This document shows positions 38,807-60,939 of a stretch of DNA of 64,000 nt, in pieces. This DNA is from Patescibacteria group bacterium (GTDB taxonomy: Bacteria > Patescibacteriota > UBA1384 > XYA2-FULL-43-10 > 1-14-0-10-43-13). The notes under the pieces were generated by a model. The model was not told where the DNA came from. It saw only the letters and a program-made list of their open reading frames with translations, and did no database searches. The DNA lies in the NCBI GenBank assembly GCA_041671645.1, contig JBAZBD010000001.1, forward strand, positions 21,561 to 85,560, written 5' to 3'. How positions within the stretch are numbered: the stretch's first letter is position 1; the number at the start of each line of letters is the position of its first letter. The position numbers were made by a program, and so were the translations under genes.

Positions 38807-38807
<1 letters not shown>

Positions 38808-39970: not shown

Positions 39971-40040
39971 ACTAAGCTCCAATCCGCCAAAGGGCGGAGA
40001 ATTAAGAATATTGAATATAGAATCAAGGTTCGAACCCATA

Positions 40041-40193: not shown

Positions 40194-40209
40194 ATTTGAT
40201 TGTAAATCC

Positions 40210-40238: not shown

Positions 40239-40306
40239 ATTCGTACATTGTAGATCGTGATTATATTTGTTATGTTAGTGATATATTTATTCAGGAAGAG
40301 AATGAA

Positions 40307-46483: not shown

Positions 46484-47437
46484 CTAGACCGACGGTTTGA
46501 AGGTCGTAACAAAATATGGTTTAAGTTCCGGATTAAAGCTGAGCTTAAAGTCTCCTCTGTTTGGAGAATTTGCCCCGACAAAATCGACCTCGCTGAGCTT
46601 TTTATCCATTGCATCACGTACAGCATCAGCCAACAATAATGTGCCTGCGTTTAGATTGCGATAATCCGGATGATTTGCCCCGAATAAGTAGAAACCGGAT
46701 CGGTCATCAAAGATAAATAGATTGGCGGCAACCGGCACGCCGTCGACTTTGACACAGGTGAGTCTGCCATAGTGATTATCGAGGGCGCTCTTTGTGATAC
46801 TTCTCAAAAGAAGCGACTCTTTTTCATCACGCTCGATACCTTGGCGCTTAAAGGTTTTATCATGCAGGTCATCCAAAACCATTTCATCGTCAATTTCCTC
46901 GATCTTCAAATTCTCAAAAGCTTTCTTGATCTCCTGCCTTCTTACTTTTCGAATCGTGCCCAGATACTCATCAAAGCTTTCATGCTTCCGGAGATCCAAG
47001 ACGGCTGAATATCTCAACACCAGATTGTATACTCCCTTCTCCGGCTCATGATAATTGAACCATTGAAACGGCCGCATATCAACAAGGCGCCAAGAATGAC
47101 ACAGACACAATTGCCCATAGTGTTCAGTGCACTCAGCGATTAAGAATTCAGTAACCTTAAATTCCAGCGACTGTCGGCGATGTGGCTCCAAAGCTGAATT
47201 ATCAGCAAGCGACAAGCCCTGATACTCGGTGAAGGGAAATACGCCGGAGATAGGACCATCATCGCCAAATAGCACAACCAGACCGGCAACGATCTTATTG
47301 TCCTCGGCACAAGTAACAAGCTCGTATTTTGTATTTAAAGAATTTAAAAACTTTGTCGACACAAATACGCTTCTTTGTGGCGAACTATGGACAAATTCAT
47401 CCCAAAGCTCGGCACTCTCTCCGAATTTTATCTCCAT
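46484..47437 (-). CDS. FemAB/CelD-like GNAT-fold acyltransferase
   Basis: 317 aa. The C-terminal half (NLFIFDDRSGFYLFGANHPDYRNLNAGTLLLADAVRDAMDKKLSEVDFVGANSPNRGDFKLSF) resembles BioF2-like/FemAB-like acetyltransferase domains. Confidence 0.5.
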   Translation of the reverse strand: MEIKFGESAELWDEFVHSSPQRSVFVSTKFLNSLNTKYELVTCAEDNKIVAGLVVLFGDDGPISGVFPFTEYQGLSLADNSALEPHRRQSLEFKVTEFLIAECTEHYGQLCLCHSWRLVDMRPFQWFNYHEPEKGVYNLVLRYSAVLDLRKHESFDEYLGTIRKVRRQEIKKAFENLKIEEIDDEMVLDDLHDKTFKRQGIERDEKESLLLRSITKSALDNHYGRLTCVKVDGVPVAANLFIFDDRSGFYLFGANHPDYRNLNAGTLLLADAVRDAMDKKLSEVDFVGANSPNRGDFKLSFNPELKPYFVTTFKPSV

Positions 47438-47449
47438 ACTATACTCTCG

Positions 47450-48757
47450 CTAATTAGTTAACTGGCCTCTATTCTCCCAGACTTTTTTGAATGCGTTCGC
47501 CACATCATCCAGATCATCCCTCGTCATCGGCGGTCGCATTAATTCATGAGTTACCAGTAATTCGTAATGCATTTTTTCAGTGACCGGACAGATGCCTTTT
47601 TGATAAGAAACGTCATCATTATAAAAAGCACACTTCCATGGGCAGCCTTTGTCGCCATACGCTATTTTTTGCTGAAAAATCGGCTGGAGGTAGAGTGGCT
47701 TCACATAGCCTGTCCCTATTTTCACCCCCTCAGTTTCCCTCAGTTCTATGGGAGCCAGCTCTGCCTTGACGGCTTCAATAAATTTTTCTCTAGTGACTCC
47801 GGCTTTTGCCTCATCAAATTTAATCGCGTGCAGGTAAAAAACATGTTCGCTCTCCGGCCTGACCTTCGCAACCTCAAGACAGGGGATCTGATTTAGTTTA
47901 TCATTGAGATAATTAACGTTGTCAATTCGATCTTTTATCAGCCCAGCTAACTTTCTAAGTTGTACTTGAGCAATCGCTGCCTCAATCTCAGTCATCCGGA
48001 GATTGAAGCCGACCATATTTACTAAATCGCCGACACCTTTATTCTCAACAACGGCTTCAGCGTGGTTCCTTATTAGCCTGATCTTTTCGGCAAGGTCGTC
48101 ATCATCGGTCACGACGATACCGCCCTCACCAGTATGAATATGTTTATGGTAGTTCAGCGAGTAAACACCGATATCTCCGAGAGTACCGGCCCATCTCCCT
48201 TTATATTTAGCTCCTGGAGCCTGGGCACAATCCTCGATAACCAGCAGATGATGTTTCTTTGCGATTGCATTGATCTTATCAGCGTCATACGGTTGGCCGA
48301 ATATGTCGACTACAATAATTGCCTTTGTTTGTTTAGTAATTTTTGCCTCAATCGATTCGGGAGACAGACAAAAGTAGTCCTCCTCAATATCGGCAAAGAC
48401 TGGAATAGAATTAAAAATCAGAGGAGCAGTTGCAGAAGCTGACATCGTATAAGGCGAAACGATAACTTCGTCCCCTGGTCCGGCGCCAACGGCGCCAACG
48501 GCACAATAGAGTCCGGAGGTAGCAGAGTTAACTGAAATTGCATGTTTTACGTTAAAATATTTTGCCCATTTTTCCTCTAGCGCACGTACTTCTGGCCCGC
48601 CATAAAAATCCTCATGCCATGCTCCTAGAAATTTGGATAACACGCCGGACTCAATAACTTTTTTAGTTATCTCAGTCTCTTCTTGCCCCAGAACTCTATA
48701 TGCAGGAAAACTTTTGGCTCTGGTCTTCTCGCCACCGTTAATCGCTAATTTTGGCAT
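47450..48757 (-). CDS. DegT/DnrJ/EryC1/StrS-family PLP aminotransferase (second copy)
   Basis: AISVNSATSGL, VIEDCAQAPGAKYKGR and the SLNYHKHIHTGEGG catalytic Lys region. At 435 aa it is longer than the PseC-type enzyme. Confidence 0.85.
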   Translation of the reverse strand: MPKLAINGGEKTRAKSFPAYRVLGQEETEITKKVIESGVLSKFLGAWHEDFYGGPEVRALEEKWAKYFNVKHAISVNSATSGLYCAVGAVGAGPGDEVIVSPYTMSASATAPLIFNSIPVFADIEEDYFCLSPESIEAKITKQTKAIIVVDIFGQPYDADKINAIAKKHHLLVIEDCAQAPGAKYKGRWAGTLGDIGVYSLNYHKHIHTGEGGIVVTDDDDLAEKIRLIRNHAEAVVENKGVGDLVNMVGFNLRMTEIEAAIAQVQLRKLAGLIKDRIDNVNYLNDKLNQIPCLEVAKVRPESEHVFYLHAIKFDEAKAGVTREKFIEAVKAELAPIELRETEGVKIGTGYVKPLYLQPIFQQKIAYGDKGCPWKCAFYNDDVSYQKGICPVTEKMHYELLVTHELMRPPMTRDDLDDVANAFKKVWENRGQLTN

Positions 48758-49878
48758 AAACTCTGCTCCATATAATCAATTACTCTTTTCACCGGATCTT
48801 TTATTAATTTGAATTCAGCCATCTTCTCTCTTCCGCCGTTTATAGCCGATTTGATCCGGAAATTCAGGGTTCCTTGGTCTAAAATACTTCTCATTAGCCC
48901 AATCCGGTCCAGAACGAAGGGATTGTCCCCTTTGAGCCCGATCTGGATGCTGATCGTCGGTTTACCTAAAATATAAGATTCCAACAGGAACATCGAAGAC
49001 ATCCCACACACAAGATCTGATATTTTTATTAAATCTTGGGAGCAAGAATCCCGATCCAAATATACTTTTATATTATCGCTCTTCAGCTTATTGATCAACC
49101 CATCATAATAGCTTTCGTCCTCTTTGGGGTGAAGTTTTATTATCAGAGAAATTTTAAAGTTTTTCTTAACGTCCTCTATATCAGACAACGCTTCGTGCAA
49201 GCTACAAAATGTCGTGATTTCGTCATAACCAAAGTGTTCCCTAGCATCGCCATATATTTTTCTGATCGGCTCTGAAGCGTAGGTCACAACATAATTGGAG
49301 TGAGAAAGACGATATTTCTTTCTGATCTTTTCCAAAGCATGAGTATCAAATTCTCTATTCTTTAAATACTCGAAGTACGGCTGTCCAGAGACTAAAATCC
49401 GATCTACGGGCAATCCGGCCAAAATCGCCTCACTTTTAGCCAGCTCATCCATCACCAATATCTTTGATGGCAGATACTCATGCTGAGGGTTCTTCTTATA
49501 TTTATCGACATTAGAAACGCCCCATTTTGAAAAACGGATTCCGTAATTTACCCACTGATCCAGAATCGCAAATGAGGGAATGTCCATAATCATGGCCGAT
49601 GACCAAAGATATTTTTCCGTCATATCATCGGCGCTCGTACCGGTAATGATAAAATCTGGTTTTTGGATGAGAAGAAACCCCTTGATCTCTTTTGGACTTA
49701 TTTCTTTGATCTCTTCGGCGATCGGCAAAGCGTGGATTCCGTTTTGGTTAAAACGAGTCATCGCGACATCCTTGCCGAATACTACAACCTTATATCCCCT
49801 CTGTTTCAATGGTTCAAAAAGAGGAATAACCGTGTTAGCTCCGCCGGGATCTCTGGCAAACAGAAGAATTTTCTTCAC
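48745..49878 (-). CDS. GT-B-fold protein: PseG-like UDP-sugar hydrolase or nonulosonate transferase candidate
   Basis: GTG start 2 nt after the upstream stop. N-terminal KILLFARDPGGANTV (Rossmann-like). The C-terminal half has KLHPKE and, 44 residues later, GMSSMFLLESYILGKP, a generic GT-B nucleotide-binding pattern. Confidence 0.4.
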   Translation of the reverse strand: MKKILLFARDPGGANTVIPLFEPLKQRGYKVVVFGKDVAMTRFNQNGIHALPIAEEIKEISPKEIKGFLLIQKPDFIITGTSADDMTEKYLWSSAMIMDIPSFAILDQWVNYGIRFSKWGVSNVDKYKKNPQHEYLPSKILVMDELAKSEAILAGLPVDRILVSGQPYFEYLKNREFDTHALEKIRKKYRLSHSNYVVTYASEPIRKIYGDAREHFGYDEITTFCSLHEALSDIEDVKKNFKISLIIKLHPKEDESYYDGLINKLKSDNIKVYLDRDSCSQDLIKISDLVCGMSSMFLLESYILGKPTISIQIGLKGDNPFVLDRIGLMRSILDQGTLNFRIKSAINGGREKMAEFKLIKDPVKRVIDYMEQSLCQN

Positions 49879-49880
49879 CC

Positions 49881-50834
49881 TTACGATCCCTTCATATTAA
49901 TAGCCGTTTCTAGATCAGCAATGGCCTCTTTGGCTGAGCACAGAAGCGTTTCTTTTTTTGTTAAATGTGAGAATATGTTATCGGCGGCAAAGTATATAGA
50001 CCTATTTAGCGAAGTCTTGAGGTTGTTCTCCTTCACTAGGTATTTATAACCTTCGAACTCATCGCTCTTCTCTACCCGCCAAATCTCAACATCATTTCCT
50101 GAATTGCGTATCTGAATTCTACCGCTAGCAAAAAGGAGTTCCAGTTCGAAGATTGTATAGTTTTTCGAGCCTATCGCCAAGAATGCAACATTGCCTGAGT
50201 TTATCTTCAGAATACCACTCACCGATGGATCGTCAGTAGAAAAATCATTCTCTCTCGCAAAAGGTTCAAACGCACCGGCTTCCCCCAAAAACATCCGAAG
50301 AAGATCGACCATATGCGAGCCATTATGCATAACGCCCTTACCATAGTAAGCCGTACCACAGATAAAGTTACCATATTCGCCTGCCTTAACAGCCTCGGCC
50401 AAATTTATTAGTTCCGGGACAAACCGCCTAGAATAGTTGACCTGCAAGGCGATACTGCGCTCCTCACAGATTTTTACAATCTCCACGGCCTCTAGTAACG
50501 TTTTGGTAATTGGCTTCTCAGCAAAGATAGCCTTGATCGACTTGGTCATCAATGATTTTAGAATCTCCGCATGGAAATCGTCTGGCACGCAAACGCTGAC
50601 AACATCAATGGATTCTGATGAAAATGCTTCGTCAATATCCTTAAAACTACGACATCCCCACGCCTTGGCTGCTTTCGTGCCCCTCTCAGTGTCATTATCG
50701 ACAAAACCAACCAGCTTAAAACCAGGATGTTCGGTATAAGCGTGAGCGTGTGTGATGATGTTTTTGCTGTTGGGAGTATCAAAATACGCTCCAATTTTCC
50801 CAGCTCCAACAATTAAAGCTTTAAGTTTGTCCAT
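49881..50834 (-). CDS. Gfo/Idh/MocA-family NAD(P)-dependent oxidoreductase
   Basis: LKALIVGAGKIG Rossmann start and the EKP motif (IFAEKPITKT); 317 aa. It overlaps the pseF stop by 14 nt. Confidence 0.8.
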   Translation of the reverse strand: MDKLKALIVGAGKIGAYFDTPNSKNIITHAHAYTEHPGFKLVGFVDNDTERGTKAAKAWGCRSFKDIDEAFSSESIDVVSVCVPDDFHAEILKSLMTKSIKAIFAEKPITKTLLEAVEIVKICEERSIALQVNYSRRFVPELINLAEAVKAGEYGNFICGTAYYGKGVMHNGSHMVDLLRMFLGEAGAFEPFARENDFSTDDPSVSGILKINSGNVAFLAIGSKNYTIFELELLFASGRIQIRNSGNDVEIWRVEKSDEFEGYKYLVKENNLKTSLNRSIYFAADNIFSHLTKKETLLCSAKEAIADLETAINMKGS

Positions 50835-51528
50835 TATTTTCCAAAATTTTGTACTTCATCTCGGCGATCTTCCAGTCCTCCAGGGTGTCGATATCCTGAA
50901 CCTCTGATTCAGGTATCTCTACGGGGACAGCATCATCAAGAAATGATTTCTTCTGAGCCAAAAATTTTTCTGTATTATACCAGTAAAACTGGCCACTATC
51001 GTGGTAGGACGATTCCAGATCCTGCGAGTGTTTATGCATATTCTCTGGCCAAATCATTTTTAAGCGGTCCTTTTCAATTTGGAAAGCTCGCTGGATCGGA
51101 AAGCTATATTTTACGACTGCCACAACCTGATCAGCGTGATTTTCCCTTAATTTCTGAAAGCCTAATTTCAATCTTTCAGCATTTATAAACGGTGCGGTCG
51201 ACAAAATCACGCAGAAATTGTCAAAAGATTTGCCCTCCTTCTCATATCTCTTGATCACTTCCTCAAAAACATCAATGAGGTTGGCCTTGCTGTCAGAGTT
51301 CTCCCGACTTCGTAAAAAAGGAACCTTGGCGCCTGATCTTCGTGAAATCTCTGCAATCTCTTCGTCATCTGTCGAGACCATTACCTCGTCAAAACAGCCA
51401 CACTTTACGGCAGCATCGATAGAATATTTAAGAATTGGCTGACCAAGAAAATTTTTGACATTTTTTCTCGGAACTCTCTTGCTACCACCACGGGCGGGGA
51501 TAATGGCTAATGTTTTGCTCTCCATCAT
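50821..51528 (-). CDS. pseF: Acylneuraminate/pseudaminate cytidylyltransferase
   Basis: LAIIPARGGSKRVPRKNVKNFLGQPILKYSIDAA. Start at the MM codons 51528/51525 with GAGG 5 nt upstream; the ORF-track start at 51567 overlaps pseI. Confidence 0.8.
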   Translation of the reverse strand: MMESKTLAIIPARGGSKRVPRKNVKNFLGQPILKYSIDAAVKCGCFDEVMVSTDDEEIAEISRRSGAKVPFLRSRENSDSKANLIDVFEEVIKRYEKEGKSFDNFCVILSTAPFINAERLKLGFQKLRENHADQVVAVVKYSFPIQRAFQIEKDRLKMIWPENMHKHSQDLESSYHDSGQFYWYNTEKFLAQKKSFLDDAVPVEIPESEVQDIDTLEDWKIAEMKYKILENNGQT

Positions 51529-51551: not shown

Positions 51552-52595
51552 CTAAATGTGCATCCAATTAAGTGGCGTACCCTTTTCTAGGTGTTTTTTG
51601 GCTCTTTTACCCAATATTGCATTGAGATGTTTCGGCGGTAACCCAAAGCCTGGCCTAACCGATCGTATGTTGTCAGTAGTAAATAATTCACCTCGTTCAA
51701 TATTCTCTGCTACAAAAAGTGACCGACAGAAATCTCGGCTCTTGCTTGCCTTTTCGGTCAATTCATAATTCACCTTGCCAAGAGATTCTTCTACTTCTCG
51801 AATAGAACTAACCATTTTGCGAAAATCTTCTGGTTCCATAGAGAAAGATGCATCTGGCCCACCAATTTTTTTATCCAATATGAAATGCTTCTCAATTATC
51901 TTTGCGCCAAGAGCACAGCTAGCGATCGGAATCGCTGAACCAATGGTGTGGTCAGATAAGCCAGCAATCGCTTTCAGCCTCCGACCGATGTCTGGGATCG
52001 TTGCTAAATTTATCTCCCTCAGAGGTGCAGGATATGACGAAGTGCATTTAAGTACTGCAATTTGGTTATTACCCATTCTTCGACAAGCGGCAATAGCATC
52101 CTCTATATCTGATAACTCCGCGACACCTGTCGCTAGTATCATCGGCTTGCCTTTCGACGCGGTATATTCGATCAACGGAATATCTGTAATTTCAAAAGAA
52201 GCAATTTTGTAAGCAGGCACATCCATTTTTTCTAGAAAATCGACAGCCGTATTGTCAAAGGGAGTCGAGAAACACTCCATGCCAAGATCATTGGCGATTT
52301 TCTTGAGCTTCGGCTGCCACTCCCATGGCATAGAGGCCTCTTCGTACAATTTATGAAGATTTTTACCATCCCAGATTGTGCCCTGCTTGATCTTGAAGTA
52401 ATCATTGTCGCAATTTAGTGTAATAGTATCCGCAGTGTAAGTTTGCAACTTTACGGCATCTGCACCTGAATCTCTCATCGCCCTAACAGTGTCCGCTGCT
52501 ATCTCGAATTTGTTTCCATGGTTGGCCGATAATTCGGCGACAATGAATGCCGGAGCTCCATCACCAATCGTTTTATTCCCAATCTTCAATCTCAT
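51552..52595 (-). CDS. pseI: NeuB-family nonulosonate synthase (pseudaminic acid synthase-like)
   Basis: FIVAELSANHGNKFEIAADTVRAMRDSGADAVKLQTY, the LKCTSSYPAP motif and a C-terminal SAF-like domain. ATGA overlap with pseH. Confidence 0.85.
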   Translation of the reverse strand: MRLKIGNKTIGDGAPAFIVAELSANHGNKFEIAADTVRAMRDSGADAVKLQTYTADTITLNCDNDYFKIKQGTIWDGKNLHKLYEEASMPWEWQPKLKKIANDLGMECFSTPFDNTAVDFLEKMDVPAYKIASFEITDIPLIEYTASKGKPMILATGVAELSDIEDAIAACRRMGNNQIAVLKCTSSYPAPLREINLATIPDIGRRLKAIAGLSDHTIGSAIPIASCALGAKIIEKHFILDKKIGGPDASFSMEPEDFRKMVSSIREVEESLGKVNYELTEKASKSRDFCRSLFVAENIERGELFTTDNIRSVRPGFGLPPKHLNAILGKRAKKHLEKGTPLNWMHI

Positions 52596-53092
52596 CGGGA
52601 TCTCTTTCTTAAATCACATTTACAGCGTAAGAATTTCTCTCCGCTTATAACACTTTCTTTCTCGAAAACGAAACCGGCATATTCAGAGTTTCTGACAGCT
52701 GCTAGATTGTTTGGTTTTATGTCACCAGTAGCAAAGCTTATTTCGGGCCGATATTTTTTTAAGTAGTCCATGCCTCTGATAAGAAGAATTTTGCCAAGAC
52801 CATATCCCCTAAACCTTTTGTGAAGACTAACACCGGTCAAGGCCTCGTCCCCTTTGAGATCAAATCTTACTTGACCAGCAAAAAGGCCCTTAGTTTCAGC
52901 GATCAGAAAAATATAATTCTTATCGCAAATTTTTCTGGCGAACCACGCCTTATGGTTCTTAAAATCTAATTTTTCTTGATTTACGGAATTTTTTCTTACC
53001 AAGGGATCATTAAAAAGATAGAAGATCTTTTTGCAATCTTTCTCGGTAGCCAACCGAAGTGTTACGTTGTCTCTAATTTCGTTTTTATCCAT
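52592..53092 (-). CDS. pseH: GNAT N-acyltransferase, PseH-like
   Basis: VTLRLATEKDCKKIFYLFNDPLVRKNS...HKAWF plus the GNAT core RFRGYGLGKILL. Start at MDKNEI (53092), 7 nt after the upstream stop. Confidence 0.65.
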   Translation of the reverse strand: MDKNEIRDNVTLRLATEKDCKKIFYLFNDPLVRKNSVNQEKLDFKNHKAWFARKICDKNYIFLIAETKGLFAGQVRFDLKGDEALTGVSLHKRFRGYGLGKILLIRGMDYLKKYRPEISFATGDIKPNNLAAVRNSEYAGFVFEKESVISGEKFLRCKCDLRKRSR

Positions 53093-53099: not shown

Positions 53100-53936
53100 T
53101 TAAATAATATAAGAATACGGCGCAAACTCCGCATGGTCTTTGCTAATATATCCTATAATGCCTCTTAATTCAGCGTTTGTAAATTCAATCTCATCCTCAA
53201 GATGATCTAATTTGATTGGAAAAGCTTGGATTGTTGCTCCTCGGGGAAAGGATTTGTGCTTATTTGCCATACGCAAAACCCGAGGAAAATGCGGCGAGTG
53301 AGTCACAACGCCGATTATGTCTCCGATATTGAATTCAATGTTCGGAAATTTTAAATCGGTCACCTGATCAATGGTACAAGTGATAGTTCCGTCGGGTATA
53401 CAGAGCTTCTCCTCCGGGAAATTTAGCTTGCCTATTCTGACAGCACTCCTTAAAGCTTCTATTTGTATTTTAACCCCGTTGTAGATTAGATAAGGCCCAA
53501 ATTCTCTGATAATATTTTCGACCTGTTCTTCAGTCAAACTTTTTTGGTCTTCTTCTGAGAGTCCTGAGACAGCAAGACTAATTTCCCGAATAATTTTTAT
53601 GGCGTGGTCAATTCTTTTTTTATCGGAATTGTGCGCCCAAGTTTTATCCTTATAGATAGCATCGCCTGTCAAATCAGTGATCGACTCCTGATAAGTCCCA
53701 GCCCCAGAGATCGCCCAAATCGCTTTGTATGTTTTTGGTTTTTCGTGGTCAAACTGTATCGGTTTTGAAGCTGCTTGATCCAAACTCTCAATTTCAAGAA
53801 CAACTGTTTTTATGAGATGATCGAGCCGATCCTCGTGACCACGCCAATACTCTCCATGCTCTTCAGTCGCATAGTCGAGGAGGGCCGGACTATCAATCCC
53901 TTTAGTTAATTTTGATATAGTTTTTTTCTCATTCAT
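53100..53936 (-). CDS. DUF218 (YdcF/ElyC/SanA-like) domain protein
   Basis: The block order AIWAISGAG ... RIDHAIKII ... LIYNGVKIQIEALR ... IGVVTHSPHFPRVLRM parallels the DUF218 pattern (vvLGgG..Rl..a..sGg..Ea..VTs.yH.pRa). GGAG lies 8 nt before the ATG at 53936. Confidence 0.5.
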   Translation of the reverse strand: MNEKKTISKLTKGIDSPALLDYATEEHGEYWRGHEDRLDHLIKTVVLEIESLDQAASKPIQFDHEKPKTYKAIWAISGAGTYQESITDLTGDAIYKDKTWAHNSDKKRIDHAIKIIREISLAVSGLSEEDQKSLTEEQVENIIREFGPYLIYNGVKIQIEALRSAVRIGKLNFPEEKLCIPDGTITCTIDQVTDLKFPNIEFNIGDIIGVVTHSPHFPRVLRMANKHKSFPRGATIQAFPIKLDHLEDEIEFTNAELRGIIGYISKDHAEFAPYSYII

Positions 53937-53977: not shown

Positions 53978-54712
53978 CTATAGCCAACCGCCGTTGATAC
54001 CGATACATTCTCCGGTAATATAGCTGCTGTCGTCAGAAGCCAAAAAAATGGCTAGTTTCGCAATTTCTTGCGGTTTGGCTAATCTGCCAAGAGCAATTTT
54101 TGGCAAAACTTTTGTTTTCATTATTTCATCTGGGACTCCGGCCACCATATCAGTTTCTGTAAAACCGGGGCAAATGGCGTTGACTGTGATACCGTATCGT
54201 GCCGTTTCCTTGGCCAGAGACTTGGTCAGGCCGATCAAGCCGGCCTTGGCGGCGCTATAGTTTGTTTGGCCGAAGTTACCGATCTGAGCTATAATGGAGG
54301 AAATATTGATGATTCGCCCTCCGCCATTTTCAACCATTTTAGGTAAAAATTGTTTGATGATGAAAAAGGGGCCGTAAAGATCAGTTTTAATCACGGCGTC
54401 CCAATCCTCGAGAGACAACTTCAATAGCGTTCTATCTCTAGCAATACCAGCATTATTTACCACAACATCCACCTGGCCAAATTGATCCAGAATTTTCGCG
54501 CAAGCTTTTTCTACTTCTTCGTAGTTAGCTACATCAAAGTAGAATATGGAGCTCTTGGGAGAAATTTCTTTGACCTCAGCGACGGTCTGCTTGGAAGCGT
54601 CGTTTTCTTTGGTTCCCGTCATCGCTATTGTATAACCATTTTTCGCGAACTCCAGGGCCATACTTTTGCCAATTCCTCTGGTCGATCCAGTGATAACAGC
54701 AATCTTATTCAT
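53978..54712 (-). CDS. SDR reductase, PhaB-type acetoacetyl-CoA reductase / FabG-like
   Basis: ITGSTRGIGK, NNAGIARD and ISSIIAQIGNFGQTNYSAAKAGLIGLTKSLAKE. The FGQTNYS.AKAG block is closer to the PhaB sequences I recall than to E. coli FabG (GQANYAAAKAG). 8-nt overlap with the thiolase gene. Confidence 0.85.
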   Translation of the reverse strand: MNKIAVITGSTRGIGKSMALEFAKNGYTIAMTGTKENDASKQTVAEVKEISPKSSIFYFDVANYEEVEKACAKILDQFGQVDVVVNNAGIARDRTLLKLSLEDWDAVIKTDLYGPFFIIKQFLPKMVENGGGRIINISSIIAQIGNFGQTNYSAAKAGLIGLTKSLAKETARYGITVNAICPGFTETDMVAGVPDEIMKTKVLPKIALGRLAKPQEIAKLAIFLASDDSSYITGECIGINGGWL

Positions 54713-55889
54713 AGTTTTCTATCAGCATCGCAATGCCCTGACCACCACCAATACAAAGCGAGGCTACCCCATATTTTAATTTTCTTCTTTTGAGTTCATG
54801 GATGAGACTGACCAAGATACGAGCGCCACTTGCGCCAATTGGGTGGCCGAGGGCGATAGCTCCACCGTTTACATTAACAATTTTTTCATCTATACCAAGT
54901 AGTTTCAAGGCAGCAACACTTTGGCTGGCAAAAGCCTCGTTTAGTTCCCAAAGATCGATATCTTCAATCTTGAAATTTGCCTTCTTGAGGCAAGCAACTA
55001 CTGCATAATAAACACCCATACCCATGATCTTGGGATCCAGACCAACAGAAGCATAACTCATAATCCTAGCCATGGGCTTGATTTTCTCATTTTGAACAAA
55101 TTTTTCAGAGGCAACGAAGATAACCGCAGCTCTATCATTTAAGGATGAGGAGTTGCCTGCTGTCACGGTGCCGTCTTTGTCGAATATGGGCTTCAACTTA
55201 GCAAGCGCCTCAAACGTTGTGTCGGCACGGGGTTGCTCGTCAATTTTGAACTCCGCCATTTCTTTCTTCTGCTTCACCAGAACAGGAACAATCTCATCTG
55301 ACAGACGGTTCTCCATCATGGCCGCAAGGGCTTTCTCATGACTTCTGAACGCAAATCGATCCTGGTCTTCCCTAGAAACTTTGTATTTCTTGGCAACATT
55401 TTCAGCTGTTACCCCCATATGTTCGCCGATCAAGGAACAAAATAATCCATCAGTAATCATACTATCTTTGATCGTCTGATCTCCAAGTTTTACTCCGAAC
55501 CGATGATCATCAATTAAATATGGGCTACGGCTCATGTTTTCCATCCCACCAGCGACAATCAAGTCTGCTTCTCTGAGCTCGATCGCCTGGCTGGCCAAGG
55601 TAATGCTTTTTAACCCTGATCCACAAACCTTGTTTACTGTGTAGGCCGGAACTGATTCAGGAATTCCTGCCTTGACGCTAGCAATTCTGGCCGGATTCTG
55701 CCCCAATCCAGCAGACAAAACATTGCCAAGAATAACTTCTCCGACTTTCTTTTCAATCCCTGGATTCTCGGCAATCAAATTTTTGATAACAGCCGCAGCA
55801 AGCTCTGGTGCTGAGCTACCCTGAAGACTACCACCGAATTTTCCAACGGCTGTTCTTTTGGCTGAGACGATATACACATTTTCTTTCAT
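54705..55889 (-). CDS. Acetyl-CoA C-acetyltransferase (thiolase II)
   Basis: [12 protein letters not shown] (active-site Cys), [18 protein letters not shown] and [15 protein letters not shown]; 394 aa; GAGGAA RBS. Confidence 0.92.
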
Positions 55890-55910: not shown

Positions 55911-57062
55911 TCAGCTGACCAGTATTTTTATTTTTTGGATAACAAAGTTTACTTCAACATCGGTCATTTTTGGATACAATGGTAAGCTCAAACACTGCTC
56001 GTAATACGCTTCTGCAACAGGATAATCCCCAACCTTATACCCGTATGTGTCTTGATAATAAGGCTGCAAGTGAGCAGGAATATAATGAACCTGCGAGCCA
56101 ACATTGTTTTTCCTTAATTCTTCCATCACCTCTTTGCGCGTCTTACCAATTTTAGCAAAATCAATTTTTAATACGTAAAGATGAAATGCAGAGCCGACGC
56201 CTGGCTTTTCATAAGGGGTAACGACATTTGGAAGTTTAGCGAACGCTTTATTGTATTTATCAACGATTTCCCGACGGCGTGCAGCAAATTTGTCAAGTTT
56301 CCTAAGCTGACTCAAACCAAGCGCAGCTTGTATGTCAGTAATACGATAATTGAAGCCAAGATCTTGCATTTCATAGTACCAAGGACCGGGATTTTGGCTT
56401 AATATTGCTGGATCTTTGGTGATACCATGAGATCGAAGCAGGAGCAACTGTTTGTATATTTTTTCATCATTTGTAGTGATAGCCCCGCCCTCTCCAGTAG
56501 TAATCGTCTTAACCGGATGGAACGAGAAGGTCGTCAGATCGGAATATTTGTTTGACCCAACCTTACTGCCATCAGCAAACGAAGATCCGATAGAGTGAGC
56601 GGCGTCCTCAATTACATAAATGCCTTTACTCTTCGCAAAATCGTATATTTCCTCCAAGTCGGCGACCTGGCCAGCAAAATCGACGGCCACAATTACCTTG
56701 GTTTTGTCGGTCACTCTCTTCTTGATTTCCACTAGGTCAATATTGCAGGTGTCCTCCCTGATATCCGCGAAAGCAGGGGTTAGCCCGCAATAAGCAAGGC
56801 AGTTGGCTGAAGCAACAAATGTATTGGGTGTGGTGATCCCCTCACCGTTCCCTAAATTTAATGCTAAAACGGCCAAATGGAGGGCGGCCGTGCCGTTGGA
56901 GACGGCGACACAATGTTTTGCGCCAGTATATTTGCAAATTGCCTGCTCAAACTCCTCTATTTTTGGACCTTGTGTCAAGAAGTCGCTTTTGAGCGTTTGG
57001 ACAACTTCAGCGATATCGTCGTCATCAAGCCACTGCTTGCCATATGCAATAAAACTATTCAT
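55911..57062 (-). CDS. pseC: UDP-4-amino-4,6-dideoxy-N-acetyl-beta-L-altrosamine transaminase-like (DegT family)
   Basis: The N-terminus IAYGKQWLDDDDIAEV is typical of PseC. It also has HCVAVSNGTAALHLA and FSFHPVKTITTGEGG (catalytic Lys). The ATG at 57062 lies one base after the pseB TAA. Confidence 0.85.
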   Translation of the reverse strand: MNSFIAYGKQWLDDDDIAEVVQTLKSDFLTQGPKIEEFEQAICKYTGAKHCVAVSNGTAALHLAVLALNLGNGEGITTPNTFVASANCLAYCGLTPAFADIREDTCNIDLVEIKKRVTDKTKVIVAVDFAGQVADLEEIYDFAKSKGIYVIEDAAHSIGSSFADGSKVGSNKYSDLTTFSFHPVKTITTGEGGAITTNDEKIYKQLLLLRSHGITKDPAILSQNPGPWYYEMQDLGFNYRITDIQAALGLSQLRKLDKFAARRREIVDKYNKAFAKLPNVVTPYEKPGVGSAFHLYVLKIDFAKIGKTRKEVMEELRKNNVGSQVHYIPAHLQPYYQDTYGYKVGDYPVAEAYYEQCLSLPLYPKMTDVEVNFVIQKIKILVS

Positions 57063-57063: not shown

Positions 57064-58062
57064 TTAATACACAATCTCTATTGATTTCAAAAATTCTGTA
57101 ATGCCTTTTTGATCCAACCACTCATCGTTTAAATCTGAGGAATAGCGGAATCCCTCCATCACTTTCTTGCTCCCTGGTTTGCAATGAATTTTTGGGTTCC
57201 ACCAATCAAAATCTGGATAGATAATGTAGTGATCGCCGTAGTCATGGGTTAATCTGGAGTCTTCCTCAGTGATCATGACTTCATGAAGTTTCTCCCCTTC
57301 CCTGATGCCAATTTCTTTAAGCTTGACCTCTTTGTGCATCGCTTTGGCCAAATCAGTAATTTTGACAGACGGGATCTTGGACACATAAATCTCGCCGCCT
57401 TTGGCTTCTTTGATCGCCTTAAATACAAGATCGACGCCTTGATTGAGAGTTATTAAAAATCGGGTCATACGGAAATCAGTGATCGGAATTATTCTTTGGC
57501 CAGAATCTAACAACTGTTTGAAGAAAGGTATGACTGAGCCGCGGCTACCGGCAACGTTGCCATATCGGACTACAGAAAAAACTGGGCCCTTGCCCCCAGA
57601 GTAAGCGTTGGCGGAAACAAACAATCTATCAGAGACTAACTTGGTGGCCCCATAAAGGTTGACTGGATTGACAGCTTTATCGGTAGAAAGAGCAACTACT
57701 TTCTCGACCCCGCAGTCCAAAGCCGCATCGATTACATTCTCTGCGCCGTGAATATTGGTTTTGATGGCCTCCATCGGGTTGTATTCGGCTATCGGCACAT
57801 GCTTCATAGCGGCCGCATGGATCACAATATCTACTCCATTGAGGGCCCTCTTCAGACGATCTTTGTCACGGACATCTCCGATAAAGTAACGCAGCTGACT
57901 GTCATATTCGGCGAACTGTCGGCGCATCATGTATTGCTTATACTCGTCACGAGAATAAATGATGATCTTTTTTGGTTTATATTCAGACAAAATCCGCTTA
58001 GTAAATTGCTTACCAAATGAGCCGGTCCCACCCGTGATTAGAATTGTTTTATTATTTAGCAT
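57064..58062 (-). CDS. pseB: UDP-N-acetylglucosamine 4,6-dehydratase (inverting), PseB/FlaA1-like
   Basis: Near-collinear with H. pylori FlaA1 as I recall it: NKTILITGGTGSFGK, FIGDVRD, HAAAMKHVPIAEYNP, STDKAVNPVNLYGATK, VRYGNVAGSRGSVIPFF, GIREGEKLHE. Confidence 0.92.
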   Translation of the reverse strand: MLNNKTILITGGTGSFGKQFTKRILSEYKPKKIIIYSRDEYKQYMMRRQFAEYDSQLRYFIGDVRDKDRLKRALNGVDIVIHAAAMKHVPIAEYNPMEAIKTNIHGAENVIDAALDCGVEKVVALSTDKAVNPVNLYGATKLVSDRLFVSANAYSGGKGPVFSVVRYGNVAGSRGSVIPFFKQLLDSGQRIIPITDFRMTRFLITLNQGVDLVFKAIKEAKGGEIYVSKIPSVKITDLAKAMHKEVKLKEIGIREGEKLHEVMITEEDSRLTHDYGDHYIIYPDFDWWNPKIHCKPGSKKVMEGFRYSSDLNDEWLDQKGITEFLKSIEIVY

Positions 58063-58110: not shown

Positions 58111-59403
58111 TCACTCGCTCATTACTTTCTTTATATAGAAACGCTGAATCGCTATCGTGATACAATAGTTTGCTATCAGAGTCCCAATCACTAAAGACAC
58201 GGAGAAGAAGCTAAACCTCACAGCCACTATATAGAGGCAAATCGCTAAGAAATTTACTCCATATGTAGTTAACAGACATTTCCTATAATATTGTTCCGAA
58301 AAATCAAGAATGATTGTAGCATATATCGATTGGAACAGAAAGACAACTGAGAGCACGGAGAAGCCAATAACATAAAATAAACTGACCGGGTATTGCCGCC
58401 CAAATATTGATAACATTATTAGAGTCAAGCAAGATGCAAGAACAAACAGCGGCAGGAACCCAATACAAAAGATTTTATCAATTTTTTTAATAAATGCTTT
58501 GTCTTTTACCCGAACTGTAGCAGGGAAAAATACGTTGTTAAACAATTGCCCAGCTTGTGCGATCAAGGTAAAAGAAGAAAAATAATAGGCACTGTATATG
58601 CCAAACGCTGTGAATCCAAGATATTTCGCAATTATTATTTTGTCAGCGGATAAGAAAATCGTGCCAAGCAGCGCGCTTATGAGAAACCATTTCCCCTCCC
58701 TCAAAACAGCCAATGAATCAGTAAAGTTACTTTTGCCAAAATATCTTTTAAGATAGGATAGATAATAAATCGATATTGCTATAGCCCCAGCGACTAGAAC
58801 TGAAACGAATCCCGCAAATGTGTGATCTTTTAGGACAAAAAACACCGCGATAAATAGAACGGCAACGATAATCACCTCGAATATCTTAGCCTTAGCCTGA
58901 ACTTTGAACTCCTCCAGCCCTCTAATGGACGAATCAAATAAAGTTTTAGCTGAGAAAACAATTGTGTAGCATATGAGCATCAGAAAAAAGGATTTTCCTC
59001 CAGACATTATCCGGCTCACAAAAGGATAAACTATTGGCGAGAGGACCACCAACCCGACTAGCACCAGAAAAACAATGTTGCTTATTGATGAGATAACCCG
59101 TTTTCTAGCTTTAACGGAAGGGTCTCTCGCGATGCTTCTGATAAGTACTGTATCCAGACCCAAAAAAATGAAAATAATTAAATACTGATTTGCAACCAGC
59201 ATGAGATTGTATTTTCCATACTCGATCGGTCCCATGAAGCGCCCAGCCAGGGTGGTAATCAGCATGAGAATTGGTAAGGCTCCGATGCCAGACAAAAAGG
59301 ACCACGATAGGCGAGTTAAGAATGACCGCATCTCATCCCCCATCTCATGACCGAAGACCTTGAGGTGGACTTTTTCGACAAATTGTACTAATCTTTTTTT
59401 CAT
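58111..59403 (-). CDS. Wzx-like polysaccharide flippase (MOP superfamily)
   Basis: 430 aa with about 12 TM segments and an N-terminal pattern (GALPILMLITTLAGRFMGPIEYGKY) typical of Wzx proteins. First gene of the minus-strand operon. Confidence 0.65.
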   Translation of the reverse strand: MKKRLVQFVEKVHLKVFGHEMGDEMRSFLTRLSWSFLSGIGALPILMLITTLAGRFMGPIEYGKYNLMLVANQYLIIFIFLGLDTVLIRSIARDPSVKARKRVISSISNIVFLVLVGLVVLSPIVYPFVSRIMSGGKSFFLMLICYTIVFSAKTLFDSSIRGLEEFKVQAKAKIFEVIIVAVLFIAVFFVLKDHTFAGFVSVLVAGAIAISIYYLSYLKRYFGKSNFTDSLAVLREGKWFLISALLGTIFLSADKIIIAKYLGFTAFGIYSAYYFSSFTLIAQAGQLFNNVFFPATVRVKDKAFIKKIDKIFCIGFLPLFVLASCLTLIMLSIFGRQYPVSLFYVIGFSVLSVVFLFQSIYATIILDFSEQYYRKCLLTTYGVNFLAICLYIVAVRFSFFSVSLVIGTLIANYCITIAIQRFYIKKVMSE

Positions 59404-60379: not shown

Positions 60380-60939
60380 ACGTGACCGAAACAGATATTC
60401 CCGGAGTCCTAATCCTCGAGCCCAAGGCTTTTGGTGACGATCGTGGCTGGTTTATGGAGACTTACAGTAAATCTAAGTTTGAGGAGGCCGGGATCAAGGG
60501 TGAATTTGTTCAGGACAACCATAGTTTTAGTGCACAAAAAGGCACTCTTCGCGGAATTCATTTCCAGAAGAATCCGATGGCACAAGCCAAAATAGTCCGC
60601 TGTACCAGAGGAGCCGTCCTAGACGTTGCGGTTGATCTGAGGAAAGACTCGCCCACATTCAAGCAATGGGTTTCTGTCGAGCTCACGGCCGAAAACAAGA
60701 AAATGTTTTACATTCCCAGAGGCTTTGGCCATGGTTTCCTCACACTCGAAGAGAATACAGAATTTCAGTACAAGGTAGATAATTACTATTCGCCAGAAAA
60801 TGATAGGAGCATCCGTTTCGACGACCCAGAAATCTCTATCGACTGGCAAGTGGCAGAGCCGATCGTGTCAGAAAAGGATCGACAAGCTCCTCTGCTCAAA
60901 GATAGCGACGTTGATTTTGCATATCAGGAAAATCAATAA
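60376..60939 (+). CDS. rfbC: dTDP-4-dehydrorhamnose 3,5-epimerase
   Basis: [50 protein letters not shown] and PRGFGHGF; ATGA overlap with rfbA. Confidence 0.93.

What the first reader, a model, noticed from the sequence alone, without database searches (positions are those of the whole stretch)
53978..55889. Thiolase + PhaB-type acetoacetyl-CoA reductase embedded between pseC and pseH: a private (R)-3-hydroxybutyryl-CoA supply for N-acylating the nonulosonate?
Seen: a full-length thiolase II (active-site NKVCGSG, GHP, CIGGGQG) overlaps by 8 nt with a 244-aa SDR. The SDR's substrate-region block IGNFGQTNYSAAKAGLIGLT resembles PhaB (..GQFGQTNYSTAKAGL..) more than E. coli FabG, as I recall both. 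Both genes sit directly after pseB-pseC and before DUF218-pseH-pseI-pseF. No PHA synthase, enoyl-CoA hydratase or ACP/FAS gene is present in the window. Established: PhaA + PhaB convert 2 acetyl-CoA to (R)-3-hydroxybutyryl-CoA. N-(3-hydroxybutanoyl) derivatives of pseudaminic, legionaminic and other di-amino sugars have been found chemically in several bacterial O-antigens and capsules. Inference: the PseC product, or the second amino group, is acylated with 3-hydroxybutyrate rather than acetate by the PseH-like GNAT or the FemAB-like enzyme. The operon would encode donor synthesis itself, which is notable if the host otherwise has minimal lipid or acyl-CoA metabolism.
Basis: partly seen in the sequence, partly recalled or inferred. 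Interest (0 to 1): 0.75.

Follow-up and report, generated by a model that had tools for sequence, protein, structure and literature searches.

The report
Built-in hydroxybutyryl supply for surface sugar
A tiny-genome (CPR/Patescibacteria) bacterium carries, inside its operon for the surface sugar pseudaminic acid, a coupled pair of enzymes that most likely makes 3-hydroxybutyryl-CoA so the sugar can carry hydroxybutyrate instead of acetate, and the same pair recurs beside sugar acyltransferases in related uncultured bacteria.

Summary
A 394-aa thiolase (54705-55889, -) overlaps by 8 nt a 244-aa FabG-like ketoreductase (53978-54712, -). Both sit in a tightly packed 15-gene operon with PseB, PseC, PseI and PseF, all of which pass their NCBIfam equivalog cutoffs. 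The host is a Patescibacteria MAG.

Eight of nine looked-up thiolase relatives (59-73% identity), plus two loci from an independent DNA-pattern scan, have the same thiolase-reductase pair. In 7 of the 9 sequence-checked pairs (window included) the two genes overlap by 4 or 8 nt. The pairs lie in amino-sugar or nonulosonate loci, usually next to an N-acyltransferase: a GNAT, or a hexapeptide-repeat enzyme that in one locus passes the LpxD (R-3-hydroxyacyl N-acyltransferase) cutoff. Of 80 ordinary thiolase loci, only one has a downstream reductase and none has pse genes.

Corrections:
- The reductase is not a PhaB member. It is below both the PhaB and FabG cutoffs and slightly nearer FabG, and it lacks FabG's ACP-docking arginines.
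- The "pseH" GNAT is non-canonical.

Donor use and acceptor remain untested.

The parts
54705..55889 (-). Thiolase II (acetyl-CoA C-acetyltransferase), 394 aa; inferred to condense 2 acetyl-CoA to acetoacetyl-CoA
   Evidence: Pfam Thiolase_N/C. TIGR01930 477 bits, above cutoff. Catalytic C88/N317/H348/C379 present. PDB best hits are acetyl-CoA acetyltransferases. It belongs to an 87-tip clade in an NJ tree that is separate from Bacillota and Comamonas thiolases.
53978..54712 (-). FabG-like classical SDR ketoreductase, 244 aa, start overlaps the thiolase stop by 8 nt; inferred NADPH-dependent acetoacetyl-CoA to (R)-3-hydroxybutyryl-CoA reductase
   Evidence: adh_short/KR domains. TIGR01830 282 bits (<297.75) and TIGR01829 272 bits (<302.1); passes the FabG subfamily model NF009466. 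Ser/Tyr/Lys and R in GxxRGIG conserved; ACP-docking R129 and R172 replaced by G and Y. The overlap with the thiolase is conserved in 7 of the 9 sequence-checked cassettes, window included (L096 has a 23-nt gap).
53100..53936 (-). Protein X, 278 aa (start at Met25 of the 302-aa ORF): divergent DUF218/YdcF-fold protein; candidate non-orthologous PseG (UDP-sugar hydrolase) or obligate partner of the GNAT
52592..53092 (-). GNAT acyltransferase, 166 aa, in the PseH position; inferred to transfer 3-hydroxybutyryl (rather than acetyl) to the 4-amino group of the PseC product, which becomes N7 of Pse
   Evidence: Pfam Acetyltransf_3/1. PseH TIGR03585 only 17.2 bits vs cutoff 93.1. Best PDB sequence hits are phosphinothricin-acetyltransferase-like GNATs, not PseH. 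Orthologs of 60-72% identity are found only beside thiolase-SDR so far (L002, L087).
57064..58062 (-). PseB, UDP-GlcNAc 4,6-dehydratase (inverting)
   Evidence: TIGR03589 537.6 bits vs cutoff 407.75.
55911..57062 (-). PseC, UDP-4-amino-4,6-dideoxy-N-acetyl-beta-L-altrosamine transaminase
   Evidence: TIGR03588 500.2 bits vs cutoff 423.5. Start as called on the Logan contig.
51552..52595 (-). PseI, pseudaminic acid synthase
   Evidence: TIGR03586 486.5 bits vs cutoff 340.25.
50821..51528 (-). PseF, pseudaminic acid cytidylyltransferase
   Evidence: TIGR03584 292.8 bits vs cutoff 205.7.
58111..59403 (-). Wzx-type flippase, first gene of the operon
   Evidence: Pfam Polysacc_synt. Conserved at the head of the syntenic loci L002 and L087.
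48745..49878 (-). 377-aa GT-B-like protein, probably the nonulosonate glycosyltransferase (not PseG)
   Evidence: NCBIfam BFO_1060 family glycosyltransferase E 1.4e-16, below cutoff. Pfam polysialyltransferase PF07388 23.5 bits, just above GA 23.3. 49% identical ortholog in L002.
46484..50834 (-). Downstream block: Gfo/Idh/MocA oxidoreductase (49881-50834), the 377-aa GT, a second DegT aminotransferase (47450-48757) and a FemAB/Acetyltransf_6 acyltransferase (46484-47437). It suggests a second oxidation-amination-acylation step and gives an alternative acceptor for the acyl donor.
   Evidence: Pfam; NCBIfam. The block is conserved in L002, except that the FemAB-like gene is replaced there by an Acetyltransf_3 GNAT.

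Best explanation
The thiolase and the FabG-like ketoreductase form a two-gene donor-supply module inside a pseudaminic-acid operon.

Proposed mechanism:
1. The thiolase condenses two acetyl-CoA to acetoacetyl-CoA. (Activity inferred from family and intact active site.)
2. The translationally coupled NADPH-type reductase converts it to (R)-3-hydroxybutyryl-CoA. (Inferred from family chemistry and context.)
3. The neighbouring non-canonical GNAT uses this CoA ester instead of acetyl-CoA to acylate the 4-amino group made by PseB/PseC. (Inferred from adjacency and co-conservation.)
4. Protein X, a DUF218/YdcF-fold protein fused to a GNAT in some relatives, probably performs the PseG-type UDP release. 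(Speculative.)
5. PseI and PseF yield CMP-Pse5Ac7(3-hydroxybutyryl). The 377-aa GT-B protein then probably transfers it to a surface glycan that the operon's Wzx exports. (The GT role rests only on a sub-cutoff family match and its position.)

The module exists because CPR bacteria generally lack the fatty-acid or PHB metabolism that supplies 3-hydroxybutyryl thioesters in other bacteria that make this sugar. The same thiolase-reductase unit has been combined with different acyltransferases in other CPR amino-sugar loci.
For: Shown here:
- Intact thiolase II active site and family membership.
- The SDR has the catalytic triad and an NADPH-type motif, and lacks both FabG ACP-docking arginines, as do eight relatives for R172.
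- No ACP-like ORF in the window.
- The thiolase stop overlaps the SDR start by 8 or 4 nt in 7 of the 9 sequence-checked cassettes, window included (L096 has a 23-nt gap).
- The operon is packed, with gaps of -55 to +54 nt, and its GC content is homogeneous.
- PseB, PseC, PseI and PseF are above equivalog cutoffs.
- Eight of nine looked-up thiolase relatives at 59-73% identity carry the same pair inside amino-sugar loci. The one at 58% is a lone thiolase in a housekeeping context.
- An independent junction-pattern scan of JGI metagenomes found seven more pairs. The two clearly informative ones are a DegT/GNAT glycan locus and a pair followed directly by a PseI/NeuB-family gene.
- Control: of 80 generic thiolase loci, one has an adjacent SDR and none has pse genes.
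- Adjacent acyltransferases come from different superfamilies. L092's passes the LpxD equivalog cutoff (257 vs 242.5 bits), and L003's is best matched by LpxD. LpxD-type enzymes transfer (R)-3-hydroxyacyl groups to sugar amines.
- The host is named Patescibacteria, and its contig is 868 kb.

From the literature:
- Pse5Ac7(3-hydroxybutanoyl) is a known sugar in A. baumannii K42/K93, E. coli O165 and S. fredii HH103 (PMC6586298, PMC7685785, PMC3788101).
- In Acinetobacter it needs replacement of both the PseG- and PseH-type genes (PMC6586298). This parallels the non-canonical X + GNAT pair here.
- CPR bacteria lack fatty-acid synthesis (PMC5220378).
Against: - There is no biochemical or structural-chemistry data for this organism.
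- The reductase fails both the PhaB/acetoacetyl-CoA-reductase and the FabG equivalog cutoffs, so its substrate is inferred from context only.
- The GNAT's acyl specificity cannot be read from sequence.
- X-family proteins with a neighbouring GNAT also occur without thiolase-SDR, so a non-canonical X + GNAT pair is not in itself a hydroxybutyryl signature.
- A second aminotransferase plus a FemAB-like acyltransferase in the same operon offers another acceptor.
- The rest of the 868-kb genome could not be inspected for FAS, PHA or mevalonate genes.
- One pattern-scan locus (L100) has the pair next to an ornithine/aspartate carbamoyltransferase rather than a clear sugar gene.
- LpxD enzymes normally use acyl-ACP, not acyl-CoA.
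Confidence: 0.6

Rival explanations
1. The donor-supply reading is right, but the acceptor is different. In this version 3-hydroxybutyryl-CoA is used by the FemAB/Acetyltransf_6 enzyme on the amine introduced by the second DegT aminotransferase. Other possibilities are O-acylation or another sugar of the roughly 40-kb glycan island, with the GNAT simply acetylating N7.
For: The operon contains Gfo/Idh/MocA + DegT2 + a FemAB-like acyltransferase downstream. In L089-L091 the hexapeptide enzymes beside the pair resemble WbbJ/maltose O-acetyltransferases, so O-acylation is conceivable. X + GNAT also occur without the pair.
Against: The GNAT is the conserved neighbour of the pair in all three pse-type loci (60-72% identity). 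The FemAB-like gene is replaced by an unrelated GNAT in L002. Known natural Pse hydroxybutyryl derivatives carry the group on N7, the PseH position (PMC9676051, PMC3788101).
Confidence: 0.17
2. The pair serves general metabolism and is in the operon by chance or for co-regulation. The thiolase would be the acetoacetyl-CoA thiolase of a CPR mevalonate pathway, or the pair would be part of butyrate/3-hydroxybutyrate/PHB-derived carbon metabolism.
For: CPR genomes have been reported to carry mevalonate-pathway homologs, including acetoacetyl-CoA thiolase (PMC6107057). One Parcubacterium has beta-oxidation/butyrate genes and a PHB depolymerase (PMC5220378). A 58%-identical Patescibacteria thiolase stands alone in a housekeeping neighbourhood and falls inside the same NJ clade. 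The rest of this genome was not readable.
Against: The thiolase is translationally coupled to a ketoreductase, not to HMG-CoA synthase. No crotonase, acyl-CoA dehydrogenase/ETF, PHA synthase, HMGS or HMGR appeared among the 53 window ORFs scanned with Pfam. The pair lies in amino-sugar loci in 11 independent contexts, versus 0 of 80 for ordinary thiolases.
Confidence: 0.1
3. The chemistry differs from C4-CoA. The thiolase might condense acetyl-CoA with a longer or different acyl-CoA (BktB-like) to give a C5/C6 3-hydroxyacyl group. The FabG-like reductase might act on an ACP-bound or sugar-bound keto group. Or acetoacetyl might be transferred first and reduced on the sugar.
For: BktB models score highly though below cutoff (444 bits vs 565). 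The SDR's best curated model is FabG. LpxD-type neighbours normally use acyl-ACP.
Against: No ACP in the window. ACP-docking arginines are absent. Thiolase II products are CoA esters. The best solved relatives are acetoacetyl-CoA thiolases. Classical (not extended) SDRs are atypical for nucleotide-sugar keto reduction.
Confidence: 0.08

Closest known systems
Acinetobacter baumannii psaABCGHF module (Pse5Ac7RHb; K42, K93, KL120)
   Same: It is a Pse pathway whose N7 carries (R)-3-hydroxybutanoyl instead of acetyl. The change goes with replacement of both the PseG-type and PseH-type genes (PMC6586298, PMC9676051), just as both are non-canonical here.
   Different: The Acinetobacter module as listed in those papers has six psa genes and no donor-synthesis genes. 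Here a thiolase and a ketoreductase are embedded between pseC and the acyltransferase.
Sinorhizobium fredii rkp-3 region (poly-Pse5Ac7(3-hydroxybutyramido) K-antigen of HH103)
   Same: It has PseB/C/F/I homologs at 46-56% identity and makes the same predicted sugar derivative (PMC3788101).
   Different: The S. fredii SMH12 locus has a PseH above the TIGR03585 cutoff and a recognisable PseG. It has no thiolase or SDR within +-12 kb. Rhizobia make PHB, so they have 3-hydroxybutyryl-CoA (general knowledge). SMH12's own K-antigen structure was not checked.
phaA-phaB of PHB operons (e.g. Cupriavidus necator)
   Same: It has the same two-step chemistry: thiolase II, then an NADPH-dependent (R)-specific SDR. 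The local GxFGQTNYS motif resembles PhaB.
   Different: There is no PHA synthase here. The SDR fails the PhaB/acetoacetyl-CoA reductase models (272 vs 302.1 bits; 196 vs 436 bits) and is 38% identical to C. necator PhaB. The genes overlap and sit in a glycan operon. The product is proposed as an acyl donor, not a polymer precursor.
Sugar 3-hydroxybutanoyltransferases FdhC/QdhC (E. coli O103, Salmonella O55, Hafnia, Acinetobacter)
   Same: They are dedicated N-acyltransferases in O-antigen loci that put (R)-3-hydroxybutanoyl on an amino sugar (PMC4869667).
   Different: They act on dTDP-Fuc3N/Qui3N rather than a Pse precursor. Those loci are described without donor-synthesis genes. Homology to the GNAT here was not tested.
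LpxD (UDP-3-O-acyl-GlcN N-acyltransferase)
   Same: It transfers an (R)-3-hydroxyacyl group to a sugar amine. A protein passing the LpxD equivalog cutoff overlaps the SDR gene's 3' end in the related cassette L092.
   Different: The window itself has a GNAT, not an LpxD-like enzyme. LpxD uses long-chain acyl-ACP for lipid A, which CPR bacteria are not known to make.
E. coli YdcF / DUF218 family (for protein X)
   Different: Identity is 16%, and the sequence is below Pfam's DUF218 cutoff. X has extra N-terminal helices. No catalytic function is established for DUF218 proteins.

Membership tests
Thiolase II / acetyl-CoA C-acetyltransferase | Thiolase_N + Thiolase_C domains and curated family score | tested here: met
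   PF00108 307 bits, PF02803 167 bits. TIGR01930 477 bits vs cutoff 240.55.
Thiolase II / acetyl-CoA C-acetyltransferase | Catalytic Cys (nucleophile), Asn, His and Cys (acid/base) | tested here: met
   C88 in NKVCGSG, N317 in NEAF, H348 in GHP, C379 in CIGGG (alignment to 4wyr).
Thiolase II / acetyl-CoA C-acetyltransferase | Specific equivalog (PhaA NF042967, BktB NF042999) | tested here: not met
   350 bits vs cutoff 740, and 418 bits vs cutoff 725. It is a thiolase II of no named equivalog.
PhaB / acetoacetyl-CoA reductase | Curated model score (TIGR01829 subfamily; NF042966 PhaB equivalog) | tested here: not met
   272 bits vs cutoff 302.1, and 196 bits vs cutoff 436. The seven other cassette SDRs scored reach 233-264 bits on TIGR01829.
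PhaB / acetoacetyl-CoA reductase | Association with a PHA synthase | tested here: not met
   No PHA synthase domain among the window ORFs scanned. The whole genome was not testable.
PhaB / acetoacetyl-CoA reductase | Reduces acetoacetyl-CoA to (R)-3-hydroxybutyryl-CoA with NADPH | not testable with these tools
   Inferred from coupling to a thiolase, the catalytic triad and the NADPH-type Arg. Best PDB single-domain hits are Burkholderia acetoacetyl-CoA reductases (220 and 214 bits) vs the best FabG at 212 bits.
FabG (3-oxoacyl-ACP reductase) | Equivalog score TIGR01830 | tested here: not met
   282 bits vs cutoff 297.75. The seven other cassette SDRs scored reach 269-287 bits. Only the looser subfamily model NF009466 is passed (245 vs 222 bits).
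FabG (3-oxoacyl-ACP reductase) | ACP-docking arginines R129 and R172 (E. coli numbering; their role is recalled from the literature) | tested here: not met
   G and Y in the window SDR. R172 is absent in 9/9 cassette SDRs, and R129 is present in 1/9. The reference sequence was verified against 1I01.
FabG (3-oxoacyl-ACP reductase) | Neighbouring FAS II genes / ACP | tested here: not met
   None in the window.
Pseudaminic acid biosynthesis operon (PseB, C, H, G, I, F) | PseB, PseC, PseI and PseF equivalogs | tested here: met
   537.6/407.75, 500.2/423.5, 486.5/340.25 and 292.8/205.7 bits (score/cutoff).
Pseudaminic acid biosynthesis operon (PseB, C, H, G, I, F) | PseH (TIGR03585) N-acetyltransferase | tested here: not met
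   The GNAT scores 17.2 bits vs cutoff 93.1. It has no PseH among its PDB sequence hits. It occupies the PseH position only.
Pseudaminic acid biosynthesis operon (PseB, C, H, G, I, F) | PseG (TIGR03590) UDP-sugar hydrolase | tested here: not met
   No operon protein hits TIGR03590. As a positive control, the S. fredii protein scores 97.5 bits. X is proposed as a functional substitute. This is untested.
DUF218 (PF02698) for protein X | Pfam gathering score | tested here: not met
   18.4 bits vs GA 27.6, E 0.002. None of five other family members tested hit DUF218.
DUF218 (PF02698) for protein X | YdcF-type fold | tested here: met
Mevalonate pathway (acetoacetyl-CoA thiolase role) | HMG-CoA synthase/reductase in the neighbourhood | tested here: not met
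   None among the window ORFs scanned. The rest of the genome was not readable.

The most novel reading that the evidence does not exclude
CPR/Patescibacteria, which lack fatty-acid and PHB metabolism, may have evolved a portable 'acyl-donor cassette': an overlapping thiolase + FabG-like reductase that plugs in next to GNAT, LpxD-like or other hexapeptide acyltransferases. This would decorate diverse surface amino sugars, here pseudaminic acid, with (R)-3-hydroxybutyrate. It would be the first dedicated acyl-CoA supply module described for glycan N-acylation. It would also give the first concrete structural prediction for a CPR surface nonulosonate (Pse5Ac7Hb). In the same operon, a DUF218/YdcF-fold protein that is fused to a GNAT in some relatives may replace PseG, which would give the DUF218 superfamily its first enzymatic role.
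Probability: 0.4. Interest if true: 0.75.

Novelty: new variant of a known kind. Interest (0 to 1): 0.6.

Why it matters
Nothing is known experimentally about the surface glycans of CPR bacteria, although these episymbionts live by attaching to hosts. If this reading is right, it has four consequences:
1. It predicts a specific, testable sugar (CMP-Pse5Ac7-(R)-3-hydroxybutanoyl) on a CPR cell surface.
2. It explains why genomes otherwise devoid of lipid or acyl-CoA metabolism keep a thiolase and a 'FabG'. Automated metabolic reconstructions would otherwise misread these as remnants of fatty-acid, PHB or mevalonate pathways.
3. It shows a modular way of diversifying glycan N-acyl groups, by carrying donor synthesis within the locus. 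Such modules were not found in the open-access literature searched.
4. It nominates an orphan DUF218-fold family as a partner or replacement in the PseG/PseH steps.

The module could also be useful for engineering hydroxybutyrylated nonulosonates.

Tried and rejected
- The genome-contig scan with the thiolase was saturated by the generic VAGGMENM motif. It returned only housekeeping thiolases of 57% identity or less. These were useless for context but were reused as an 80-locus negative control.
- The metagenome scan with a GNAT alignment found no true relatives.
- The word-index search for X found only two proteins, and seven when run with a profile. The full HMMER search was needed.
- X as canonical PseG is rejected by sequence: no TIGR03590 hit and no PDB sequence hit.
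- The 377-aa protein as PseG is rejected in favour of a BFO_1060-type or polysialyltransferase-like glycosyltransferase. It has no PDB sequence hit.
- X as part of the donor supply is rejected, because X is absent from hexapeptide-type cassettes and present without thiolase-SDR in L093 and L095.
- PhaB-versus-FabG could not be resolved by HMMs, PDB scores or identity.
- Promoter and terminator scans were at or near chance and uninformative.
- Pattern-scan locus L102 (thiolase 44% identical, no SDR by tblastn, high-GC) is treated as unrelated. L098, L103 and L104 are too short to judge.
- The whole-genome check for FAS, PHA or mevalonate genes could not be done.
Full report
**Observation.** The two genes exist exactly where stated. 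The thiolase ORF is 54705-55889 (-, 394 aa) and the SDR ORF is 53978-54712 (-, 244 aa). The SDR start codon lies 8 nt inside the thiolase gene.

The thiolase has both thiolase domains and passes TIGR01930 (477 bits vs 240.55). It has C88, N317, H348 and C379 in the canonical motifs. Its closest solved relatives are acetyl-CoA acetyltransferases (447 bits).

The SDR is a classical short-chain reductase with Ser/Tyr/Lys and the NADPH-type Arg of TGSTRGIG. A gene caller's shorter 227-aa version on a public contig would delete that motif, so the 244-aa overlapping ORF is the credible one.

**Operon.** The pair sits in a 15-gene minus-strand operon with intergenic distances of -55 to +54 nt and uniform GC. 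The gene order is:
- wzx, PseB, PseC, thiolase, SDR;
- X, GNAT, PseI, PseF;
- Gfo/Idh/MocA oxidoreductase, a 377-aa GT-B-like protein, a second DegT aminotransferase, a FemAB/Acetyltransf_6 protein;
- a 322-aa unknown and a GT4 glycosyltransferase.

PseB, PseC, PseI and PseF all exceed their NCBIfam equivalog cutoffs. PseH and PseG do not appear. The GNAT scores 17 bits against PseH (cutoff 93.1), and no protein hits PseG.

Of the window's 60 ORFs of at least 150 aa, 53 were scanned with Pfam. They show housekeeping genes at 1-21 kb and a glycan island of about 40 kb from 22.6 kb onward. No FAS, PHA-synthase, beta-oxidation or mevalonate gene appeared, and no ACP-like ORF was found. The ORFs not scanned are 40136-40996, 41340-42353, four overlapping shadow ORFs, and the dTDP-rhamnose/NUDIX block at 59489-63354, which is known only from the precomputed Pfam table of L001.

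**Host.** The thiolase and X are identical to proteins of a 'Patescibacteria group bacterium' MAG whose contig is 867,751 bp. Thiolase relatives that carry names are Microgenomates and Patescibacteria, plus one 'Pseudomonadota' MAG.

**Comparative evidence for a functional unit.** I looked up the neighbourhoods of nine thiolase relatives.
- Eight of them (59-73% identity) have an SDR immediately downstream. The pair overlaps by 8 nt in L002 and L087, and by 4 nt in L003, L089, L091 and L092. L090 has a 3-nt gap and L096 a 23-nt gap.
- All eight lie in amino-sugar loci with DegT aminotransferases, dehydratases and glycosyltransferases.
- L002 and L087/L088 are syntenic pse operons: pseB, pseC, thiolase, SDR, X and GNAT, pseI.
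- The others are different sugar pathways. There the gene directly beside the pair is a hexapeptide-repeat acyltransferase (L003, L089, L090, L091, L092), or a GNAT-like protein lies one gene away (L096).
- The ninth relative (58%) is a lone thiolase near dnaA.

A junction-spanning DNA pattern hit the window and 7 of the other 9 cassette loci, and none of 80 generic thiolase loci. It found seven further pairs in JGI metagenomes.
- L101 is another DegT/GNAT/Epimerase_2/carbamoyltransferase glycan locus.
- In L099 the pair is followed directly by a PseI/NeuB-family gene.
- L100 is ambiguous (OTCase, GT2).
- L102 looks unrelated.
- L098, L103 and L104 are too short to judge.

As a control, only one of 80 thiolase loci from reference genomes (49-57% identity) has an SDR directly downstream: L053 from Comamonas, probably phaA-phaB. 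None has a pse gene.

The acyltransferases beside the pair belong to unrelated folds. L092's passes the LpxD equivalog cutoff (257 vs 242.5 bits), and L003's is best matched by LpxD. LpxD-type enzymes N-acylate sugar amines with (R)-3-hydroxyacyl groups. This is independent support for the nature of the donor.

**What the reductase is.** By curated models it is neither PhaB nor FabG.
- TIGR01830 (FabG): 282 bits vs cutoff 297.75.
- TIGR01829 (acetoacetyl-CoA reductase): 272 bits vs cutoff 302.1.
- PhaB equivalog: 196 bits vs cutoff 436.
- Only a loose FabG subfamily model is passed.

The seven other cassette SDRs scored behave the same way. PDB scores are equally split, with acetoacetyl-CoA reductases at 220 and 214 bits and FabG at 212 bits.

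I checked my recalled reference sequences against PDB entries 1I01 and 4N5L/3VZP, and both matched exactly. Using them, the window SDR is 42.7% identical to E. coli FabG and 38.3% identical to C. necator PhaB. The two arginines reported to dock ACP on FabG are G and Y here. R172 is missing in all nine cassette SDRs.

So it works like a 3-ketoacyl-thioester reductase and probably does not use ACP. Its acetoacetyl-CoA substrate is inferred from its coupling to a thiolase II.

**Protein X and the GNAT.** X (278 aa from Met25) has no family hit above cutoff.
- A full HMMER search found only 162 clusters among 1.84 billion representatives.
- Five of these are X-GNAT fusions.
- An AlphaFold model from 20 family members is confident (pLDDT 94.5, pTM 0.91).
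- X occurs in all three pse-type cassettes and in none of the hexapeptide-type ones.
- Relatives of 38-42% identity lie next to a GNAT, an aminotransferase and a cytidylyltransferase without thiolase-SDR.

X therefore belongs with the GNAT/amino-sugar step, not with donor supply. Canonical PseG is absent, and the 377-aa protein looks like a BFO_1060-type or polysialyltransferase-like glycosyltransferase. X is thus the best candidate for the UDP-releasing step. This remains speculative.

**Comparison with known systems.** Pse5Ac7(3-hydroxybutanoyl) is an established natural sugar. In A. baumannii it is attributed to psaABCGHF, where PsaG/PsaH replace PsaD/PsaE (PMC9676051, PMC6586298). E. coli O165 and S. 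fredii HH103 also make it (PMC7685785, PMC3788101). Dedicated 3-hydroxybutanoyltransferases (FdhC, QdhC) are known for other amino sugars (PMC4869667).

None of these descriptions includes donor-synthesis genes. The S. fredii SMH12 Pse locus has recognisable PseG and PseH and no thiolase or SDR within +-12 kb.

Full-text searches found no relevant paper for three term combinations:
- thiolase + hydroxybut + O-antigen gene cluster;
- thiolase or acetoacetyl-CoA reductase + pseudaminic acid;
- Patescibacteria + pseudaminic acid.

CPR genomes are reported to lack fatty-acid synthesis (PMC5220378). They may have a mevalonate pathway that begins with a thiolase (PMC6107057). That is the main rival reading, and I could not exclude it genome-wide.

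**Verdict.** A dedicated (R)-3-hydroxybutyryl-CoA supply feeding an N-acyltransferase of this operon is the best explanation (about 0.6 for the full model with N7 acylation by the GNAT, and higher for donor supply as such). The 'PhaB-type', 'pseH' and 'DUF218' labels need the corrections given above. I rate it a new variant of a known kind, a Pse operon with a built-in acyl-donor module, which recurs as a portable cassette in CPR glycan loci.

Noticed in passing
window 53100-53936 (-); proteins P0135, P0136, P0141, P0143, P0190: Protein X belongs to a small orphan family (162 clusters among 1.84 billion representatives) with a YdcF/DUF218-like fold. In five members it is fused N-terminally to a GNAT domain. 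This is a Rosetta-stone link between X and the acyltransferase step, and it makes X a possible non-orthologous PseG.
   Followed up: yes
L092:11910-12842 (+); L003:9213-9992 (+): A protein passing the LpxD equivalog cutoff (257 vs 242.5 bits) overlaps the 3' end of the thiolase-coupled SDR in a CPR-type glycan locus, and a second locus has an LpxD-like enzyme directly upstream of the thiolase. Automated annotation would misread these LpxD-like enzymes as lipid A genes in organisms not known to make lipid A.
   Followed up: partly
window 46484-50834 (-); L002:11615-18217: Downstream of pseF lies a conserved block: Gfo/Idh/MocA oxidoreductase, a GT-B protein, a second DegT aminotransferase and an acyltransferase. 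The acyltransferase is FemAB/Acetyltransf_6 here and a GNAT in L002, where HisH/HisF-like genes follow. This suggests a further oxidation-amination-acylation, either of the nonulosonate or to make a second diamino sugar. Function unknown.
   Followed up: partly
window 22621-64000: About 40 kb of the 64-kb window is devoted to glycan synthesis, in a genome whose contig is only 868 kb. The content is two Wzy_C/O-antigen-ligase-family proteins (25032-27576), two Wzx-type flippases, at least six glycosyltransferases and a GtrA-like protein. The dTDP-rhamnose genes with a NUDIX gene inserted between rmlC and rmlB (59489-63354) were read only from the precomputed Pfam table of L001, not scanned here.
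   Followed up: partly
window 36629-40039 (-); L092:18276-21182: A SAM-cycle trio (AdoHcy hydrolase, PfkB-family kinase, SAM synthetase) sits inside the glycan island. The same trio flanks the cassette locus L092. It may supply methyl groups for the many methyltransferases seen in related loci.
   Followed up: no
L001:11229-11912 (same DNA as window 53978-54661): The public gene call for the SDR starts 17 codons too late (227 aa). That removes the TGSTRGIG nucleotide-binding motif and hides the 8-nt overlap with the thiolase.
   Followed up: yes
L004:8718-11179, L005, L006: In other Patescibacteria, a 58%-identical thiolase stands without an SDR, directly after a 424-aa class I/II aminotransferase and a few kb from dnaA/dnaN. 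This conserved pair has an unknown role, perhaps a different use of acetoacetyl-CoA or an amino-ketone synthase-type reaction.
   Followed up: no
window 42356-44410 (+), 45461-46429 (-), 35104-36597 (-), 28979-30232 (+): Several large ORFs in the glycan island have no Pfam or NCBIfam hit. They include a 684-aa polytopic membrane protein convergent with the operon's last gene and a 322-aa protein inside the operon.
   Followed up: no
L101:9651-11408 (-), L096:5424-6170 (+), L092:8433-9209 (+): Related cassette loci also carry carbamoyltransferase (NodU/CmcH-type) or formyltransferase genes and multiple methyltransferases. This points to heavily N/O-decorated amino sugars in these uncultured bacteria.
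   Followed up: no
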